DNA of 64,000 bases from the NCBI RefSeq assembly GCF_009914755.1, contig NC_060948.1; one strand, written 5' to 3'. Both the position numbers and the translations under genes were made by a program. How positions within the stretch are numbered: position 1 is the stretch's first letter; the number at the start of each line of letters is the position of its first letter. Shown one piece after another: positions 28,812 to 51,113 of this stretch. The notes below the pieces were generated by a model that was not told where the DNA came from, ran no database searches, and saw only the letters and a list, made by a program, of their open reading frames with translations. Origin of the DNA: the human T2T-CHM13v2.0 reference genome, Homo sapiens.

Positions 28812-28868
28812 AGTTATGGATTCACTAACAGATTCTGCTTTATGCTCTGACAACTATGACCACAATGG
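28812..28868 (+). CDS. TPTE2: TPTE-family exon with upstream in-frame ATG at 28816 (MDSLTDSALCSDNYDHNG), phase-2 end
   Basis: Acceptor ctctttggtAG, donor GG|GTGAGT; the ATG in gttATGg context is followed by 17 codons + 2 nt, in frame with the downstream cassettes. Confidence 0.6.
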
Positions 28869-29727
28869 GTGAGTTGACTTATCTAAGTGGTAAAAAATAC
28901 TGGGAGCATCAATGGCAATAACAGCTTTCTATCAGAGACTTTAAGCATCTTTGGTAACATTGTTTTTGAACCAGAGTGGAAAAAATAAGATCAGGTCAGA
29001 AGAGGGATGCTTGGTACTCAAAGATTGTTTGTGACCCCAAGTAATTAGCAGCCAAAACCTTAGGAAACTGTCAGAATGCCTGTGTATGAGACTCTGTCAG
29101 GAGTGATCCAAAAGAGTTAGGGAATCCTACTTGGAGAAAGAAAGTGGTAGCATTGGACAGGCCCCAGAGGAGCCCTCAGCAGAAAGAAAGGAGCTAAGAG
29201 ACCCTGTATCTATCCCTCACCCTTCAGAGCTGGTGCCCCGAACTCAAAGCCATCATCACATTGGATGGAGCCCCTGCCTCATGTTTAGTCACTTGATCCT
29301 GATTGAGGGGAAGCAAAGATATCTGTGACTCATGAAGAGCATGAAGGTGGTGGAGGGACTTGATAATTGGGAAATCAAAATGGGCAAGAATAGTGTGTGC
29401 CTACAAATCGGACATAAATTTGAAGCAAATTTAAGTTAAATTTGCTGCCACACATGATGATCAGGTTCAGTAATAAAGAATTGTATTTAAATCTTGATTC
29501 ATTAAACTTTTTTGAGAGTCCTAAACAGTTTTTATTACCAACACATAAAGACTTCTTTCTAGAGAAAAATCAAGTACCAGGTGCCAAATAACAGATTTAC
29601 CTGAGAATTTTTAGGAACAACACATTGCAATTTGTAGCGCAATCATAGCCAATTTGAATCAAAACAAAACAAAAAAAGTCGTGTATGCATTTATGTTGTT
29701 TCTTACTATTTACCTTTCAATCCTTTG

Positions 29728-29781
29728 CACTGACGCCAATGAATTGACATCAGAAATCTGTGCTGGAGTCAACAATGAAAG
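29728..29781 (+). pseudogene. 54-nt cassette copy, open frame (TDANELTSEICAGVNNES), acceptor lost (TG instead of AG)
   Basis: Homologous end aatgaaag|gtga; preceded by tcctttg. Confidence 0.6.
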
Positions 29782-30369
29782 GTGATGTCATAATATATAT
29801 TGGAGATGGGAGGAATTCAGGTTTTTGAAATTCAGTCTCAGAATTATTCATGGGAAAATAGTTTTCTGGACACTGATTCTAAAATTCTTTCTAAAAAGTT
29901 AGGTCTTAAGTAAGCTAATTCATATTTACCATATTTTTTAGATCAAGGAATTTTGTTGTTCACATAAATTGGTCATATCATTGCTCCATGTGGCAAATCT
30001 CTAATATATTTTTGCATTTGATGTTTGAAGTAAAATGCAGCAACCTTACATAGAGCTTTATAATAAGCTTCATGTGTTCAAATATAATTGGTACTTTTAT
30101 AACCGATGCTGTTGTGTTTTACTTAGAATGTTATTTCTTATCGTAAGATTACCAATATAGTCCCCAAAATATTTTTTTATATTTTGAATTAATTGTCTAC
30201 ATTTAAATAAAACAAGAGCTGCTGCTGTTGTTACTATTCCCTTTTAACATCTCCCCAAATTAGTGTTTTATTCGGTACACTTTATGAGATGGCAGCTTAA
30301 CAATACCCTTAATATGGCCCAAGGATTCTACAAAAGGAAATGCTGGTGTGTTTGTCAAAAGTGTTTTCT

Positions 30370-30659
30370 GGCTGGGCATGGTGGCTGAAGCCTGTAATCC
30401 CAGCACTTTGGGAGGCTGAGGCAGGTGGACCACGAGGTCAGGAGTTCAAGACCAGCCTGGCCAATATGGTAAAACCCTGTCTCTACTAAAAATAGAAAAA
30501 TTAGCTGGGCGTGGTGGTGCATGCCTGTAGTCCCAGCTACTTGGGAGGCTGAGGCAGAAGGATCACTTCAATCCGGGAGGCAGAGGTTGCAGTGAGCTGA
30601 GACAGCACCACTGCACTGCAGCCTGGATGACGAGCAAAACTCTGTCTCAAAAAAAAAAT
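30370..30659 (+). mobile_element. Alu
   Basis: Alu consensus. Confidence 0.95.
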
Positions 30660-32614
30660 GTTTCCTGTGCAGATTATCTATTCACACTTGCAGATTTGAA
30701 GTTTACTAAGCATGTGTGATATCTAAAAGTTCATTCGAAGAAAAAGTTCCAATGCCAAAAATGTTTAAAAGTGGGATATAGGAAGATGATGCAAAGATGG
30801 AATCTCCAAACATTTCCATTTTCACCAGGAGGACTTAATAGAATGTCTAACAGCTACTTTTAGATATTTTTGAAATGTGAGAGGGGTTAGTTAACACAAA
30901 GTAGACTGTGAGATTAAAATGTCTATTCATTCTAAAATCTCAGCATTCACTTTCTTATTGTCAAGTTATTCATCAGACTCTTTTCAGAGACAACCTAAAT
31001 GCAAGCTCTTAGAATATTACAACATCTTTTATATGAGATGACAGGAAATAATTTCATGGCTTTTTAAAGGATAGATGAGGGATTTGAATACCACTTTCAG
31101 ATTAAGTAACTCCTCTATTGAATACTACACTGTTTTACAGTTCATATCTCTATCATGGTTGAGAGGTATTGCCAGATTTATTCACTGACAAGTAAATATT
31201 ATTCAGTTTATAATTAGTATCCACTTTGTGGGGAGATACTTTCAGTCTATGTTAAAACTATCTTCAATGTTCAGTATCCTGTTGCACATAAAACTTTCAT
31301 GCACTAATTTTAGCATTCATTGATTTTTATGTGAATCAGTTGTAACTGATCATTACAAAATGGTGATTTTTTTTTAAAAATGTAGTTTTTCTGTGTTTAA
31401 TAAGCATCATTCTATTATAAGGAGAGCTATTCCTACCCCTATTTATTCACTATTACTATGAACTTATAAATCCTTAACATTATGTCAATGAATTACAATC
31501 CTTTCTGTCATTATTTATTTTGATGTTTAAATGGTCCCATATTTGGCCAATGGGACTCCCTAAAATCTAGCCCGTTTGTCCTTTTGACTTGACATGTTCC
31601 CATCACTTTTTGAGCATTTCCCCAGCCCTGGAATCAGCCATTTACCCAAAGAACCTGATGTCCTTTGGAAACCAATATTTTGCATTTGGTATGCTCATTG
31701 CCATTGGCTCATTGCTACTTGTAGGCCTTTTTAATATCTAGATGAGAGTACAGATATACATATTGACATATGCAGATATATGCATATATGCAACAATTTT
31801 AATGTGTTTAATATACAGTATATACATTTATATGTGTTCTGTAAACTATGTATTATTGTTTTGCCTATATGTTTTTAAATTTACTTAAATGGTATTAAGT
31901 TGTATCTCATTTTGTTAGTTTTTTGCTGAGTAACATAAGATTATTCTTCTTGTGCATACCTTTTGTTATTGCTTTTAACTGGTATGAAAAATTCCACAGC
32001 ATGCATCCCCTAGTGAGGAACACATATATGGCTTCCTACCATTTGCCTTCACAAAGAGTGCCGCTAAATGATTATCCTTATGCCAGACCCCTATAGACCT
32101 ATTTGAGTATTTCTGTAGGAATATGAAACAGGACTTGATGGGCCATGGGATTGCGTATTTTGAATTTGACTGAATACTGCCTATTGCTCTCACAATGCTT
32201 ATACCAGTCTGCATCTCATGAACAATGTATGATGGTTCCTACACATACACATTCACAACAACACTTGACATTATCAAACTTTCTAATTTATATAATCAGT
32301 CTAATAGGTCATAACATATTGCATTATGTTTTACTTTGAATTTATGTGATAACTTATGAATTTGAGCATTATTTTTTTGTTCTTATAGCATTTGGGATTT
32401 CTTCTGTAATGGTCCATTCATGAACTTAGACCATTTTTCCGCTAGTATTCCTATCTTTGTCTTGTTAATTTACATGTGCTGTTTTTGAATATTTTATATT
32501 TTAGAATAAGTTAATCAAATTTCTTTTAAAATCATGTTTAATTTTCAAAGTGATTATGTTACATTTGTAAACAATATAGCAAGAATTCCCTCTTTTTAGT
32601 AACATTAAAAACAT

Positions 32615-49215: not shown

Positions 49216-49266
49216 CACTGCCTTCAGTGAAATGACAACTGTAACACATGAAAATTTGAGGTTTAA
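49216..49266 (+). CDS. Candidate 51-nt cassette exon (TAFSEMTTVTHENLRFN)
   Basis: tttttactccatcAG acceptor; AA|GTAAAT donor (alternative in-frame donor after 49260); open frame. Confidence 0.35.
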
Positions 49267-50214
49267 GTAAATAAAAAGCTAGATGTAAACATATATATGT
49301 AAATACACACACAGAGACACACACAAAAGTATACATGTAGAAAAGAGAGATTCAGATTTCGGAAGTTCATTGTATGGAGCATCCATAACAATACAGAGTG
49401 TTTTAGACACTGTTTTCTAAAGTCTTATTACTGTAGTATCTGCAGATACATTTCTTTCTTCAATCTAGTTGGATAAAAGAGGAATAGGTCTTAAGAGGAA
49501 TGCTTCTTATTCCTATTCCATTGGTCACCCTTATTTAGCAGCACCCTGAAACCTTAGAAAAATATGAGAACGTGTGTATTGTATGACACTCTACTAGAGT
49601 GAGCCAAAAGAGGCAACAATCCTATTTGATGAAAGGAGGAGGTAACAGTGGGCAGGGAGCTGAGGAGCTCTCAACAGAAAAGAGCAAAGCTGATAGACCC
49701 CTGGTCTCTTCGTCTGTTACCACATGAGGCTACTGCCCCAAAGGTAAACCCACCCTCAGATTGTATGGTGGCCCTGCCTTGGGTCTGTAGTTACTTAACC
49801 CTATCTGAGGGGCAGGAAAGACATCGATGATCGGTGAAGAGTTACTGGTGGTATTTGAACGTGAGAAGGCAGAAAATTACAAGGGCAAGCAAGATGGGTG
49901 TTTACAAACTAAAGTTGATTTTATGTAAATTTTGCCAGAAACAGTAACTTGGGGATTAGGTTTAGGAGTAAAGAAATGTATATAAACTTGATTCATTAAG
50001 TTTTTTTTACAGGCTGAAAAATTTCATTACAAACATCTAAAACCTCATTTGCAGAGAAAAATTAAATACCATGTTTCAAATAAATAACTGATTAATGTCC
50101 ATTTTTCAGGGTAACTAGATTATAAATTGTGGAATAGTTATTGCTAATTTGTATCAGAAAATTAAGTCTAGGATAACATGTGGAGTCTTGCTATGTTCAT
50201 TTTTAATCCTTTAG

Positions 50215-50268
50215 CTATTACCCCATTGAATTAAAAAGAGTAATGTGTGGTAGAGTCATCAATGATGG
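50215..50268 (+). CDS. Candidate 54-nt cassette exon (YYPIELKRVMCGRVINDG)
   Basis: ttttaatcctttAG acceptor, GG|GTGAGA donor, open frame. Confidence 0.5.
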
Positions 50269-50651
50269 GTGAGATTTGAAAATACGGAGAGAAAGAAGAG
50301 AGGCGTATATTAAGATTGGTAAAATTCACTCACAAATGAAGTAATAAAGAACTGCACTTAAATTGTGATTCATTAGATTGTTTGTTAAGGCCCAAGAGCA
50401 TCTTTACATAATGTAAGGTTTTCTTCTAGGAAAAAATGATATATTAATAGTAGATTCCAAATCATTGACATATACATTTTCAGAGTTCAGCCAGTTTATA
50501 AATGTAGAGCAATTGTACATAATTTCAACCAGAAAAGTATGTCTCTGAAGTCACTTGACCTGATGTGTACATTTTTAATTGTTAGCACTGGCCCGGATAA
50601 AATGACATCAGTAATCTTTCACTACTTTGATATATCTTTGATATAACTCAC

Positions 50652-50704
50652 CTTTCATTGGTGGTGTCATTGAAAACTACTGATGTTATTAATTTGGGTC
50701 AGTG
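50652..50704 (-). pseudogene. Inverted 53-nt cassette copy with stops
   Basis: The reverse complement reads tatcctttAG|cactgacccaaattaataacatcagtagttttcaatgacaccaccaatgaaag|GTGAGT. Confidence 0.75.
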
Positions 50705-51113
50705 CTAAAGGATATATCTACACACACACACACACACACACACAGACAGACAGATATAACACACATGTATATATGTGTGTGTGTATATATACAGATATAT
50801 CTTTTAGCTATATATGTAGTATATATAGATATATAAAAATGTATTTATGTGTATATAGATATACACATATCTATATACATGTCTACATATGTGCATATTT
50901 AAATGTGTGTATATATATCTGTATATACATATCAATATATAGATATATTATTTAGCACTGACCCAAATTAATAACATCAGTAGTCATATATATATCCTTT
51001 AATATATATGAGCATGTGTATATATATGTAAACATATATGTATATATCCTTTAGCATATATATGTATATATACATATATATAGTTTATATACACATATAT
51101 ATGTGTGTATATG

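What the first reader, a model, noticed from the sequence alone, without database searches (positions are those of the whole stretch)
28812..50710. Hidden array of ~18 symmetric 54-nt cassette microexons: a possible combinatorial N-terminus generator for the TPTE/TPTE2 voltage-sensing phosphatase
Seen in sequence: a ~1-1.3 kb intron+exon unit recurs across ~22 kb. Twelve copies keep AG/GT borders and a stop-free phase-2/phase-2 frame (36050, 36693, 37924, 38816, 40154, 42574, 43860, 45995, 46997, 47596, 49216, 50215). Their lengths are 54 nt, or 51/96 nt, so all length changes are multiples of 3. Every cassette, and the 57792 exon, begins with T or C, so the split junction codon can never be a stop in any combination. 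Three of the four copies with a dead acceptor or inverted orientation (41611, 45012, 50652) contain stops; 29728 stays open. Recalled knowledge: human TPTE and TPTE2 proteins use only 3-4 such 18-aa repeats. Inference: the locus holds a larger library of 18-aa modules (loosely P-x-x-N-E-L/F...N-E-S) that could be assembled combinatorially, or was used that way ancestrally.
Basis: partly seen in the sequence, partly recalled or inferred. Interest (0 to 1): 0.85.

Follow-up and report, generated by a model that had tools for sequence, protein, structure and literature searches.

The report
Relic exon array in Y-linked TPTE pseudogene
This stretch of the human Y chromosome is the unannotated front half of a broken copy of the sperm phosphatase gene TPTE2, and it preserves an old tandem array of 18-amino-acid exons that other mammals use far more fully than humans do.

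Summary
A profile census finds 15 forward cassette copies, one partial and one inverted. All 12 claimed cassettes have AG/GT borders, an open phase-2 frame and lengths of 54 (9), 51 (2) or 96 (1) nt.

The array is the 5' half of a TPTE2-like copy spanning window ~28.8-111.6 kb. Only its 3' end is annotated (TPTE2P4). Two downstream exons carry frameshifts, so this copy makes no phosphatase.

Human TPTE and TPTE2 proteins, encoded on C21 and C13, use only the 40154 (start codon), 42574, 43860 and 47596 types. A published TPTE cDNA primer joins the 28812 exon directly to 40154, skipping five cassettes.

Ancestral use of a larger library is well supported. Orangutan and gibbon models use the 45995/46997 types. 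Same-species isoform models in 14 of 18 pairs differ by exactly one 18-aa block.

Present-day use of the extra cassettes in humans is not shown. The unused cassettes have weak donors (4-7 of 9 consensus matches versus 7-9). Their intactness across paralogs is only marginally unusual (p about 0.05). Cassette 49216 is open only on Y.

Verdict: an ordinary tandem exon-duplication array, mostly relic here.

The parts
28812..28868 (+). Ancestral start exon (AG acceptor, ATG at 28816, ends in two bases of a Gly codon, GTGAGT donor). Intact on Y.
   Evidence: tblastn: 74-78% identity to the first 18-19 aa of mangabey and macaque models, weaker to horse; 12 of 122 proteins match at E<1e-3. Sequence and borders; the C21 and C13p copies carry a 1-nt insertion that gives an early stop.
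29728..29781 (+). Cassette with dead acceptor (TG) but open frame; a relic in all human copies examined.
   Evidence: TG in Y, C21, C13p, C13q. A 13-aa part appears in Cercocebus isoform X9 (E 1e-8). It resembles a repeated horse module (p_shuffle 0.003).
36050..36145 (+). 96-nt cassette (54 nt plus an internal 42-nt duplication), open, weak donor GTGTTG. Unused in the models seen.
   Evidence: 0 of 122 proteins at E<1e-3.
36693..36746 (+). 54-nt cassette, open, donor GTGAAT. Unused in the primate models seen.
   Evidence: Resembles rabbit, dog and cat modules (p_shuffle 0.003).
37924..37974 (+). 51-nt cassette (derived in-frame 3-nt deletion), donor GTGAAT. Unused.
   Evidence: The C3 fragment keeps 54 nt and a GTGAGT donor.
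38816..38869 (+). 54-nt cassette, open, donor GTGAGA. Unused.
   Evidence: Resembles the rabbit X3 module that sits next to the 36693-like one.
40154..40207 (+). Cassette carrying the human TPTE/TPTE2 start codon (ATG at 40197-40199). Fully coding in gorilla, orangutan and monkey models.
   Evidence: 30 of 122 proteins at E<1e-3. The second half of the published cDNA primer maps to its first 14 nt.
41611..41666 (+). Dead cassette (GG acceptor, no donor, stop). Dead in all copies, including the old ones.
42574..42627 (+). Cassette coding in human TPTE. Skipped in human TPTE2, whose copy has a GTGAAT donor.
43860..43913 (+). Cassette coding in human TPTE and TPTE2.
44056..47186 (+). Extra three-unit super-unit of about 3.1 kb (45012, 45995, 46997), bounded by (ATCC)n tracts. 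Absent from C21, C13p and C13q; present in the C22:38.84 Mb copy.
   Evidence: Alignment breaks at 44055 and 47134-47186. (ATCC)n at 43999-44055 and 47134-47186. C22 copy.
45012..45067 (+). Dead cassette (GG acceptor, stops).
45995..46048 (+). Cassette with no counterpart in human TPTE/TPTE2. Coding in orangutan and gibbon models.
   Evidence: 4 of 122 proteins at E<1e-3.
46997..47050 (+). Second copy of the 43860 type (92% identical including flanks). Coding in the orangutan model.
47596..47649 (+). Cassette whose inclusion or skipping gives human TPTE 551-aa versus 533-aa isoforms.
   Evidence: RT-PCR evidence in PMC2394243 (passages read).
49216..49266 (+). Relic cassette, open only on Y.
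   Evidence: 65 nt with a stop in C13q; deleted with ~813 nt in C21/C13p. 62 nt with a stop in two old copies.
50215..50268 (+). Last cassette before the common exon, open on Y, weak donor. Resembles the carnivore module directly before the ERLSRF exon.
   Evidence: (8-nt deletion in C13q; GTGAAA donor in C21).
50509..50751 (.). Partial forward copy (50509-50617) abutting an inverted cassette copy (50625-50751, minus strand, with stops).
57792..57851 (+). First non-array coding exon (MLERLSKF... type), shared by all TPTE-family proteins.
   Evidence: 45 of 122 proteins at E<1e-3.

Best explanation
The interval is the unannotated 5' half of a Y-linked, TPTE2-like segmental-duplicate copy of the voltage-sensing phosphatase gene. 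RefSeq labels its 3' end TPTE2P4.

It contains a tandem array made by repeated duplication of a ~1-1.3 kb unit consisting of one 54-nt exon plus its intron. Every exon starts at codon position 3 and ends after position 2, so any subset can be spliced in or out without changing frame. The array therefore encodes a modular, probably disordered, cytoplasmic N-terminus of variable length.

The array predates the split of primates, rabbits, carnivores and horses. It evolves by birth and death through unequal crossing-over. One example is the 3.1-kb three-unit block bounded by (ATCC)n tracts, which Y and a C22 copy keep and C21 and C13 lack.

In the human lineage only four cassettes are still coding. 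The others are relics: five lie in the intron skipped by TPTE cDNA, two are dead, and two downstream ones are decaying.

On Y the start exon and cassettes are intact, but downstream exons are frameshifted, so no phosphatase is made.

Shown here: the anatomy, the paralog and orthologue relations, the lesions, and one published splice junction. Inferred: ancestral coding use of 36050-38816, the unequal crossing-over mechanism, and disorder of the N-terminus.
For: Array and frames.

Identity: human TPTE alpha, TPTE beta and TPTE2 proteins retrieved map onto 40154/42574/43860/47596/57792.

Extent of the Y copy: TPTE2-like exons on the same strand from window ~66 kb to ~111.6 kb.

Broken: a +1 frameshift in the exon for TPTE2 residues 346-372 and a 2-nt loss in the exon for residues 435-465.

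Ancestral coding use: the orangutan 593-aa model uses 40154, 42574, 43860, 45995, 46997 and 47596 types in the Y order. Gibbon models use the 45995 type. Macaque TPTE2-like models carry 1-4 pairs of two module types that match the human old copy at C13:51.52 Mb.

Isoform steps: of 18 same-species pairs, 14 differ by exactly one 18-aa block. Two macaque pairs differ by 36 and 72 aa, one pair by 31 aa, and one by 14 aa plus C-terminal changes.

Age: units are only 40-67% identical across subfamilies including flanks. Five cassettes keeping frame and borders is improbable under neutrality beyond d of about 0.05-0.1 (product 0.049 at 0.05 and 0.002 at 0.10, with an assumed indel rate).

Relic status in humans: the cDNA primer printed in PMC2394243 joins the 28812 exon to 40154. 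0 of 122 proteins match 36050, 36693, 37924, 38816, 49216 or 50215 at E<1e-3. Donors score 4-7 of 9 versus 7-9 of 9 for used cassettes.
Against: All four upstream cassettes (36050-38816) stay intact in Y, C21, C13q and C22:17.3 Mb, while 46% of 851 matched intronic windows do so. That gives p about 0.046 for 4 of 4, a weak hint of continuing constraint.

Substitution rates in unused cassettes are a little below their flanks: 0.033 vs 0.042, 0.058 vs 0.085, 0.045 vs 0.080. The C13q flank values are probably inflated by insertions.

pN/pS is about 1 or higher (0.84-1.95) in used and unused cassettes alike, so sequence constraint cannot tell live exons from dead ones here.

Most non-human proteins are automatic gene models, not verified transcripts. 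Only the best 120 of 1290 hits were listed and examined, and these are 90%-identity cluster representatives, so rarer isoforms using the upstream cassettes could exist unseen.

Similarity of 36050-38816 to rabbit and carnivore modules is weak (E 0.013-0.3; shuffle p 0.003-0.03). It shows family membership rather than strict orthology. Mouse gave no convincing match.
Confidence: 0.8

Rival explanations
1. Live reserve library: the extra intact cassettes (36050, 36693, 37924, 38816, 50215 types) are still included in a minority of human or ape testis transcripts of TPTE, TPTE2 or the Y copy. They would give combinatorial 5' leaders or, from in-frame ATGs, longer N-termini.
For: AG/GT borders and frame are intact in every copy examined for 36050-38816: Y, C21, C13p, C13q and C22:17.3 Mb, plus the C3 fragment for two of them. 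4 of 4 intact against an empirical 46% per window gives p about 0.046. Polypyrimidine tracts are retained at 0.61-0.83. Single-cassette skipping is common in models of other mammals. One cassette is proven alternative in human.
Against: Donors are weak: GTGTTG, GTGAAT, GTGAAT, GTGAGA and GTGAGA/GTGAAA, 4-7 of 9 matches. In TPTE2 the same GTGAAT change goes with skipping of the 42574 type. No retrieved primate model contains these cassettes. The published cDNA junction skips them. In C21 and C13p the upstream start exon is frameshifted, so inclusion would mostly alter a leader. 50215 is destroyed in TPTE2 by an 8-nt deletion.
Confidence: 0.12
2. Never exons: the cassettes that no retrieved protein uses are merely intronic copies of a repeat whose open frames and AG/GT borders are inherited by descent and have no coding history.
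For: An antisense frame is also open in 10 of 15 copies. 46% of matched intronic windows stay 'intact' across paralogs. pN/pS is about 1 or higher. Matches to other species' modules are weak for 36050-38816.
Against: All cassettes align as one family with the proven exons, including branch/polypyrimidine and donor regions. Units are 40-67% identical including flanks across subfamilies, yet keep frame, length in multiples of 3 and borders, which is improbable under neutrality over that depth. 29728, 45995 and 46997 types are coding in other primates' models. 49216- and 50215-like modules sit in the same order before the ERLSRF exon in cat models. Rabbit X3 has adjacent 36693-like and 38816-like modules.
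Confidence: 0.04
3. The Y copy is itself a working, male-specific TPTE2-like gene that uses the array.
For: On Y the ancestral start exon, all used cassettes and the 57792 exon are intact and in frame. Several downstream exons, including the last, read through.
Against: Two coding exons are frameshifted, +1 and -2, and these do not compensate. RefSeq labels the 3' part a pseudogene (hub annotation).
Confidence: 0.02

Closest known systems
Human TPTE isoforms alpha (551 aa) and beta (533 aa), and TPTE2 (TPIP) isoforms
   Same: Same gene family and the same exons. The 54-bp exon whose skipping gives the 533-aa form is the C21 counterpart of window cassette 47596. RT-PCR showed both forms in testis and tumours (PMC2394243, passages read).
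   Different: Those reports concern one or a few used exons of the chr21 and chr13 genes. Here the full array of 15 forward copies is laid out in a Y pseudogene copy, with relic, dead and lineage-specific cassettes.
Tandem exon-duplication arrays with cassette-type skipping, such as titin PEVK exons and nebulin super-repeats
   Same: Exon plus intron duplicated in tandem, symmetric phase so that copy number and inclusion can vary freely, higher-order super-units, and lineage-specific expansion.
   Different: Much smaller. It lies in the N-terminal tail of a membrane enzyme, and the modules evolve fast (pN/pS about 1 or higher).
The 54-bp exon unit of fibrillar collagen genes
   Same: A repeated 54-nt (18-aa) exon thought to have multiplied by tandem duplication.
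   Different: As recalled, collagen exons are phase 0, constitutive and encode Gly-X-Y repeats. There is no sequence relation.
Dscam1-type mutually exclusive exon clusters (PMC4835542, search listing only)
   Same: A tandem array of duplicated exons that diversifies one end of a protein.
   Different: Dscam picks exactly one exon per cluster. Here the isoform models include many modules at once and drop single ones independently. No selector or docking elements were sought.

Membership tests
TPTE/TPTE2 (voltage-sensing phosphatase) gene-family copy | N-terminal exons match TPTE/TPTE2 proteins in order and frame | tested here: met
   tblastn of human TPTE and TPTE2 N-termini onto the window gives 62-89% identity at 42574, 43860, 46997, 47596 and 57792. 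Cassette-by-cassette paralog table.
TPTE/TPTE2 (voltage-sensing phosphatase) gene-family copy | Voltage-sensor, phosphatase and PTEN-type C2 exons follow on the same strand | tested here: met
   PF10409 hit at C24:27391406-27391630 (+). TPTE2 protein exon matches on C24 from 27346253 to 27391636. Further exons.
TPTE/TPTE2 (voltage-sensing phosphatase) gene-family copy | Uninterrupted coding frame (a functional member rather than a pseudogene) | tested here: not met
   +1 frameshift in the exon for residues 346-372. 2-nt loss in the exon for residues 435-465.
Alternatively spliced tandem cassette-exon array | Tandemly duplicated exon-plus-intron units | tested here: met
Alternatively spliced tandem cassette-exon array | Symmetric phase and lengths in multiples of 3, so any subset keeps frame | tested here: met
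   12 of 12 bordered cassettes are 51, 54 or 96 nt, phase 2 at both ends.
Alternatively spliced tandem cassette-exon array | Transcript evidence of alternative inclusion | tested here: inconclusive
   One cassette (47596 type) is proven by RT-PCR in print. 14 of 18 same-species model pairs differ by one 18-aa block, but these are gene models. No transcript data can be queried here for the extra human cassettes or for the Y copy.
Mutually exclusive exon cluster (Dscam1-like combinatorial generator) | Exactly one exon of the cluster included per transcript | tested here: not met
   Proteins carry 2-16 modules in series, and isoform models drop single modules.

The most novel reading that the evidence does not exclude
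Catarrhine TPTE-family genes keep a reserve of splice-competent 18-aa cassettes (36050, 36693, 37924, 38816 and, in TPTE, 50215 types) that are still included in rare testis or spermatid isoforms. The N-terminus of the human sperm voltage-sensing phosphatase would then be more variable than annotated. More broadly, mammalian VSP would carry a lineage-tuned, combinatorially spliced modular N-terminal tail (1-4 module pairs in macaque, 8 double modules in horse, at least 16 in hare) that sets its trafficking or localisation.
Probability: 0.12. Interest if true: 0.55.

Novelty: new member of a known kind. Interest (0 to 1): 0.35.

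Why it matters
For genome annotation: the T2T Y annotation shows no gene in this window and labels only ~16 kb as TPTE2P4. 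The TPTE2-like copy actually spans ~83 kb, with an intact start exon and cassette array but a frameshifted body.

For TPTE biology: the comparison explains why human TPTE begins at MNES. The ancestral start exon is frameshifted on C21, so translation starts at an ATG in the last codons of a cassette.

It also shows that the N-terminal tail of mammalian voltage-sensing phosphatases is a modular array whose copy number differs greatly between lineages. That tail is the part experimenters had to replace to get mouse VSP to the oocyte surface (PMC11344830, passages read). Its modular, variable make-up may therefore bear on why mammalian VSPs are hard to traffic and study.

For evolution: it is a compact example of exon birth and death by unequal crossing-over, with live, weakened and dead exons side by side.

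Tried and rejected
I used a native 50-aa exon frame from C21 instead, which led to the full-length proteins.

2. I first read the Y last exon as frameshifted. This was wrong: it ends like TPTE2 itself. An apparent stop in the exon for residues 408-434 lies just past a TCA|GTAAGA donor and is intronic.

3. The genome-wide TPTE2 exon map could not settle whether Y is broken, because only the best candidates are scored.

4. dN/dS and cassette-versus-flank rates have little power and do not separate used from unused cassettes.

5. A first empirical null was invalid because the C22 locus is homologous only over Y 35950-38925. It was redone on the shared region.

Loci already held (L005-L011) served as partial substitutes, so the upstream cassettes could not be examined in the ~80-83% identical copies. 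The DNA search returned none of them.

7. Literature: four full-text searches found no description of the array. Sutton et al. 2012 was not held. I did not try to fetch Guipponi 2000/2001 or Tapparel 2003, which I saw only as citations and which most likely describe the exon structure. I therefore cannot say it is not in print.

9. No further TPTE exon was seen after 57792 within the window.

Full report
WHAT IS THERE. The window (T2T chrY 27.28-27.344 Mb, contig C24 of the held genome) contains a real tandem array. The repeat finder recovers many in-register families with 1-1.3 kb spacing and a higher-order spacing of 3.1-3.7 kb. It finds nothing elsewhere.

Nine are 54 nt, two are 51 nt and one is 96 nt. 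All 15 copies and the 57792 exon start with C or T. 41611 and 45012 have GG acceptors and stops. 29728 has TG but is open.

The claimed frame is open in 13 of 15 copies. The other sense frames are open in 1 and 5 of 15, and 38% of 13,214 background windows are open. One antisense frame reaches 10 of 15, so descent from one open ancestor explains much of the count.

WHICH GENE. A DNA search of the window's own genome finds close paralogs on C21 (95%), C13 near 13.5 Mb (95%) and C13 near 18.69 Mb (93%). Older or partial copies lie on C13 near 51.5, 51.7 and 68.1 Mb (79-83%) and on C22 at 38.84 Mb (91%). Copies of the upstream part lie on C22 at 17.3 Mb and C3 at 99.3 Mb.

A native exon frame from C21 retrieved human TPTE alpha (551 aa), TPTE beta (533 aa) and, in a second search, TPTE2 (522 aa) plus many mammalian relatives. 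Comparing these with the cassette table gives the human usage:
- TPTE starts at an ATG in the last 11 nt of the 40154-type cassette. It then uses the 42574, 43860 and 47596 types and the 57792 exon.
- The beta form lacks exactly the 47596-type block.
- TPTE2 skips the 42574 type, whose donor in that gene is GTGAAT.

THE Y COPY. TPTE2-like exons continue on the same strand from window ~66 kb to ~111.6 kb. The copy is therefore ~83 kb long. The annotated TPTE2P4 (window 95.9-111.8 kb, hub annotation) is only its tail, and the array is its unannotated head. The last exon ends like TPTE2.

Two exons are broken. In the exon for residues 346-372 the first part reads in one frame and the last part, up to the GTAAGT donor, in the next frame, across an A-run. 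In the exon for residues 435-465, seven bases stand where nine are needed between two conserved stretches that read in different frames. The Y copy is a pseudogene by sequence, not only by label. Its start exon (28812-28868) and all used cassettes are nevertheless intact.

WHY HUMAN TPTE STARTS INSIDE A CASSETTE. Window 28816-28869 translates to the first 18 residues of mangabey, macaque and gorilla models and resembles a horse exon. On C21 and C13p this exon carries a 1-nt insertion that gives an early stop, so the next usable in-frame ATG is the one in 40154.

A paper that cloned TPTE from tumours printed a forward primer whose first 9 nt are the end of this exon and whose last 14 nt are the start of the 40154-type cassette. 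The two halves map 11.3 kb apart on C21 (PMC2394243, passages read). Human TPTE cDNA therefore splices across 29728, 36050, 36693, 37924 and 38816. The same paper shows by RT-PCR that a 54-bp exon is alternatively skipped in testis and tumours.

WAS THE LARGER LIBRARY EVER USED? Yes, with good support for most cassettes.
- The orangutan 593-aa model runs through 40154, 42574, 43860, 45995, 46997 and 47596 types in exactly the Y order. Gibbon models use the 45995 type.
- Y and the C22:38.84 Mb copy thus keep a three-unit block that C21, C13p and C13q lack. The block's ends coincide with (ATCC)n tracts, as expected for unequal exchange.
- Macaque 'TPTE2-like' models of 578, 614, 650 and 686 aa carry one to four pairs of two module types. 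These are the same types found in the human copy at C13:51.52 Mb.
- The horse model has 8 copies of a 34-aa double module, and the hare model has at least 16 copies of one 18-aa module.
- Of 18 same-species isoform pairs, 14 differ by exactly one 18-aa block with 0-1 other differences, at three different array positions in tiger. Two macaque pairs differ by 36 and 72 aa, one pair by 31 aa, and one by a 14-aa piece of the 29728 type plus C-terminal changes.
- Mouse VSP has a 211-residue N-terminus (PMC11344830, passages), although I could not align it convincingly to the cassettes.
- The ends of the array look collinear with cat models: the 29728 type after the start exon, and 49216-like and 50215-like modules just before the ERLSRF exon.
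- For 36050-38816 the outside evidence is weaker. Rabbit isoform X3 has adjacent modules resembling 36693 and 38816 (E 0.3 and 0.013; shuffle p 0.003 each).
- Units from different subfamilies are only 40-67% identical including flanks. Keeping frame, borders and 3n length in five cassettes is improbable under neutrality beyond roughly 5-10% divergence (with an assumed indel rate).

ARE THE EXTRA CASSETTES LIVE NOW? I found no positive evidence.
- None of the 122 retrieved proteins (the best 120 of 1290 hits plus two fragments) contains 36050, 36693, 37924, 38816, 49216 or 50215 types at E<1e-3.
- Donors of unused cassettes match the U1-complementary consensus at 4-7 of 9 positions, against 7-9 for cassettes used in human or ape proteins. 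The C3 fragment shows that 37924 once had 54 nt and a GTGAGT donor.
- 49216 is deleted in C21/C13p, is 65 nt with a stop in C13q, and is 62 nt with a stop in two old copies, so its open 51-nt form is a Y accident. 50215 has an 8-nt deletion in TPTE2.
- On the other side, 36050-38816 are intact in all four independent copies, whereas 46% of 851 matched intronic windows are. That gives p about 0.046 for 4 of 4 (the first attempt was invalid).
- Rates and pN/pS do not discriminate.

I put relic status at about 0.8 and residual use at about 0.12.

COMPARISON AND NOVELTY. This is a tandem exon-duplication array with cassette-type inclusion. That kind is well known (titin PEVK, nebulin and collagen 54-bp exons are recalled, not checked here). 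It is not a Dscam-like mutually exclusive cluster.

The used human exons and one alternative 54-bp exon are in print. Four full-text searches found no account of the whole array, its relics or its lineage-specific expansions. However, Sutton 2012 was not held, and I saw Guipponi 2000/2001 and Tapparel 2003 only as citations and did not read them. I file it as a new member of a known kind. In this window it is mostly a fossil. Its wider interest lies in the modular N-terminus of mammalian voltage-sensing phosphatases.

Noticed in passing
window 40065-40153: Ape and green-monkey gene models begin with a 30-aa leader (MCRVMKAS...) that is simply the intron upstream of cassette 40154 read straight into it (96% identity over 47 aa on Y). 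This points to either an alternative promoter inside the array or an annotation artefact.
   Followed up: partly
window 43999-44055 and 47134-47186: (ATCC)n microsatellites sit exactly at the two ends of the 3.1-kb three-unit block that Y has and C21/C13 lack. They are likely the sites of the unequal exchange.
   Followed up: partly
window 52000-54300: GC-rich block (52% versus ~35-40% around it) made of degenerate repeats with about 75-80 nt periodicity, conserved in the C21 and C13 copies. Its nature was not determined.
   Followed up: partly
window 48940-49753: About 813 nt including cassette 49216 are missing from the C21 and C13p copies.
   Followed up: partly
L042 (G000:C3:99302441-99306566): A fragment on another chromosome carries only the 37924- and 38816-type cassettes. 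It keeps the ancestral 54-nt length and GTGAGT donor of the former, and is a dispersed piece of the array.
   Followed up: partly
outside the window: C24 27346253-27391636 (window ~66-111.6 kb): The TPTE2-like copy on Y is ~83 kb long, but only its last ~16 kb are annotated as TPTE2P4. Two exons are frameshifted (L047 near 1131-1215; L049 near 876-970).
   Followed up: yes
L005, L007, L011 (G000:C13:51521473-51534185): The human copy at C13 51.52 Mb carries the same module types as the macaque 'TPTE2-like' gene models. Two of its cassettes have AA instead of AG acceptors, so it may be the decayed human counterpart of a gene still modelled as coding in macaques.
   Followed up: partly
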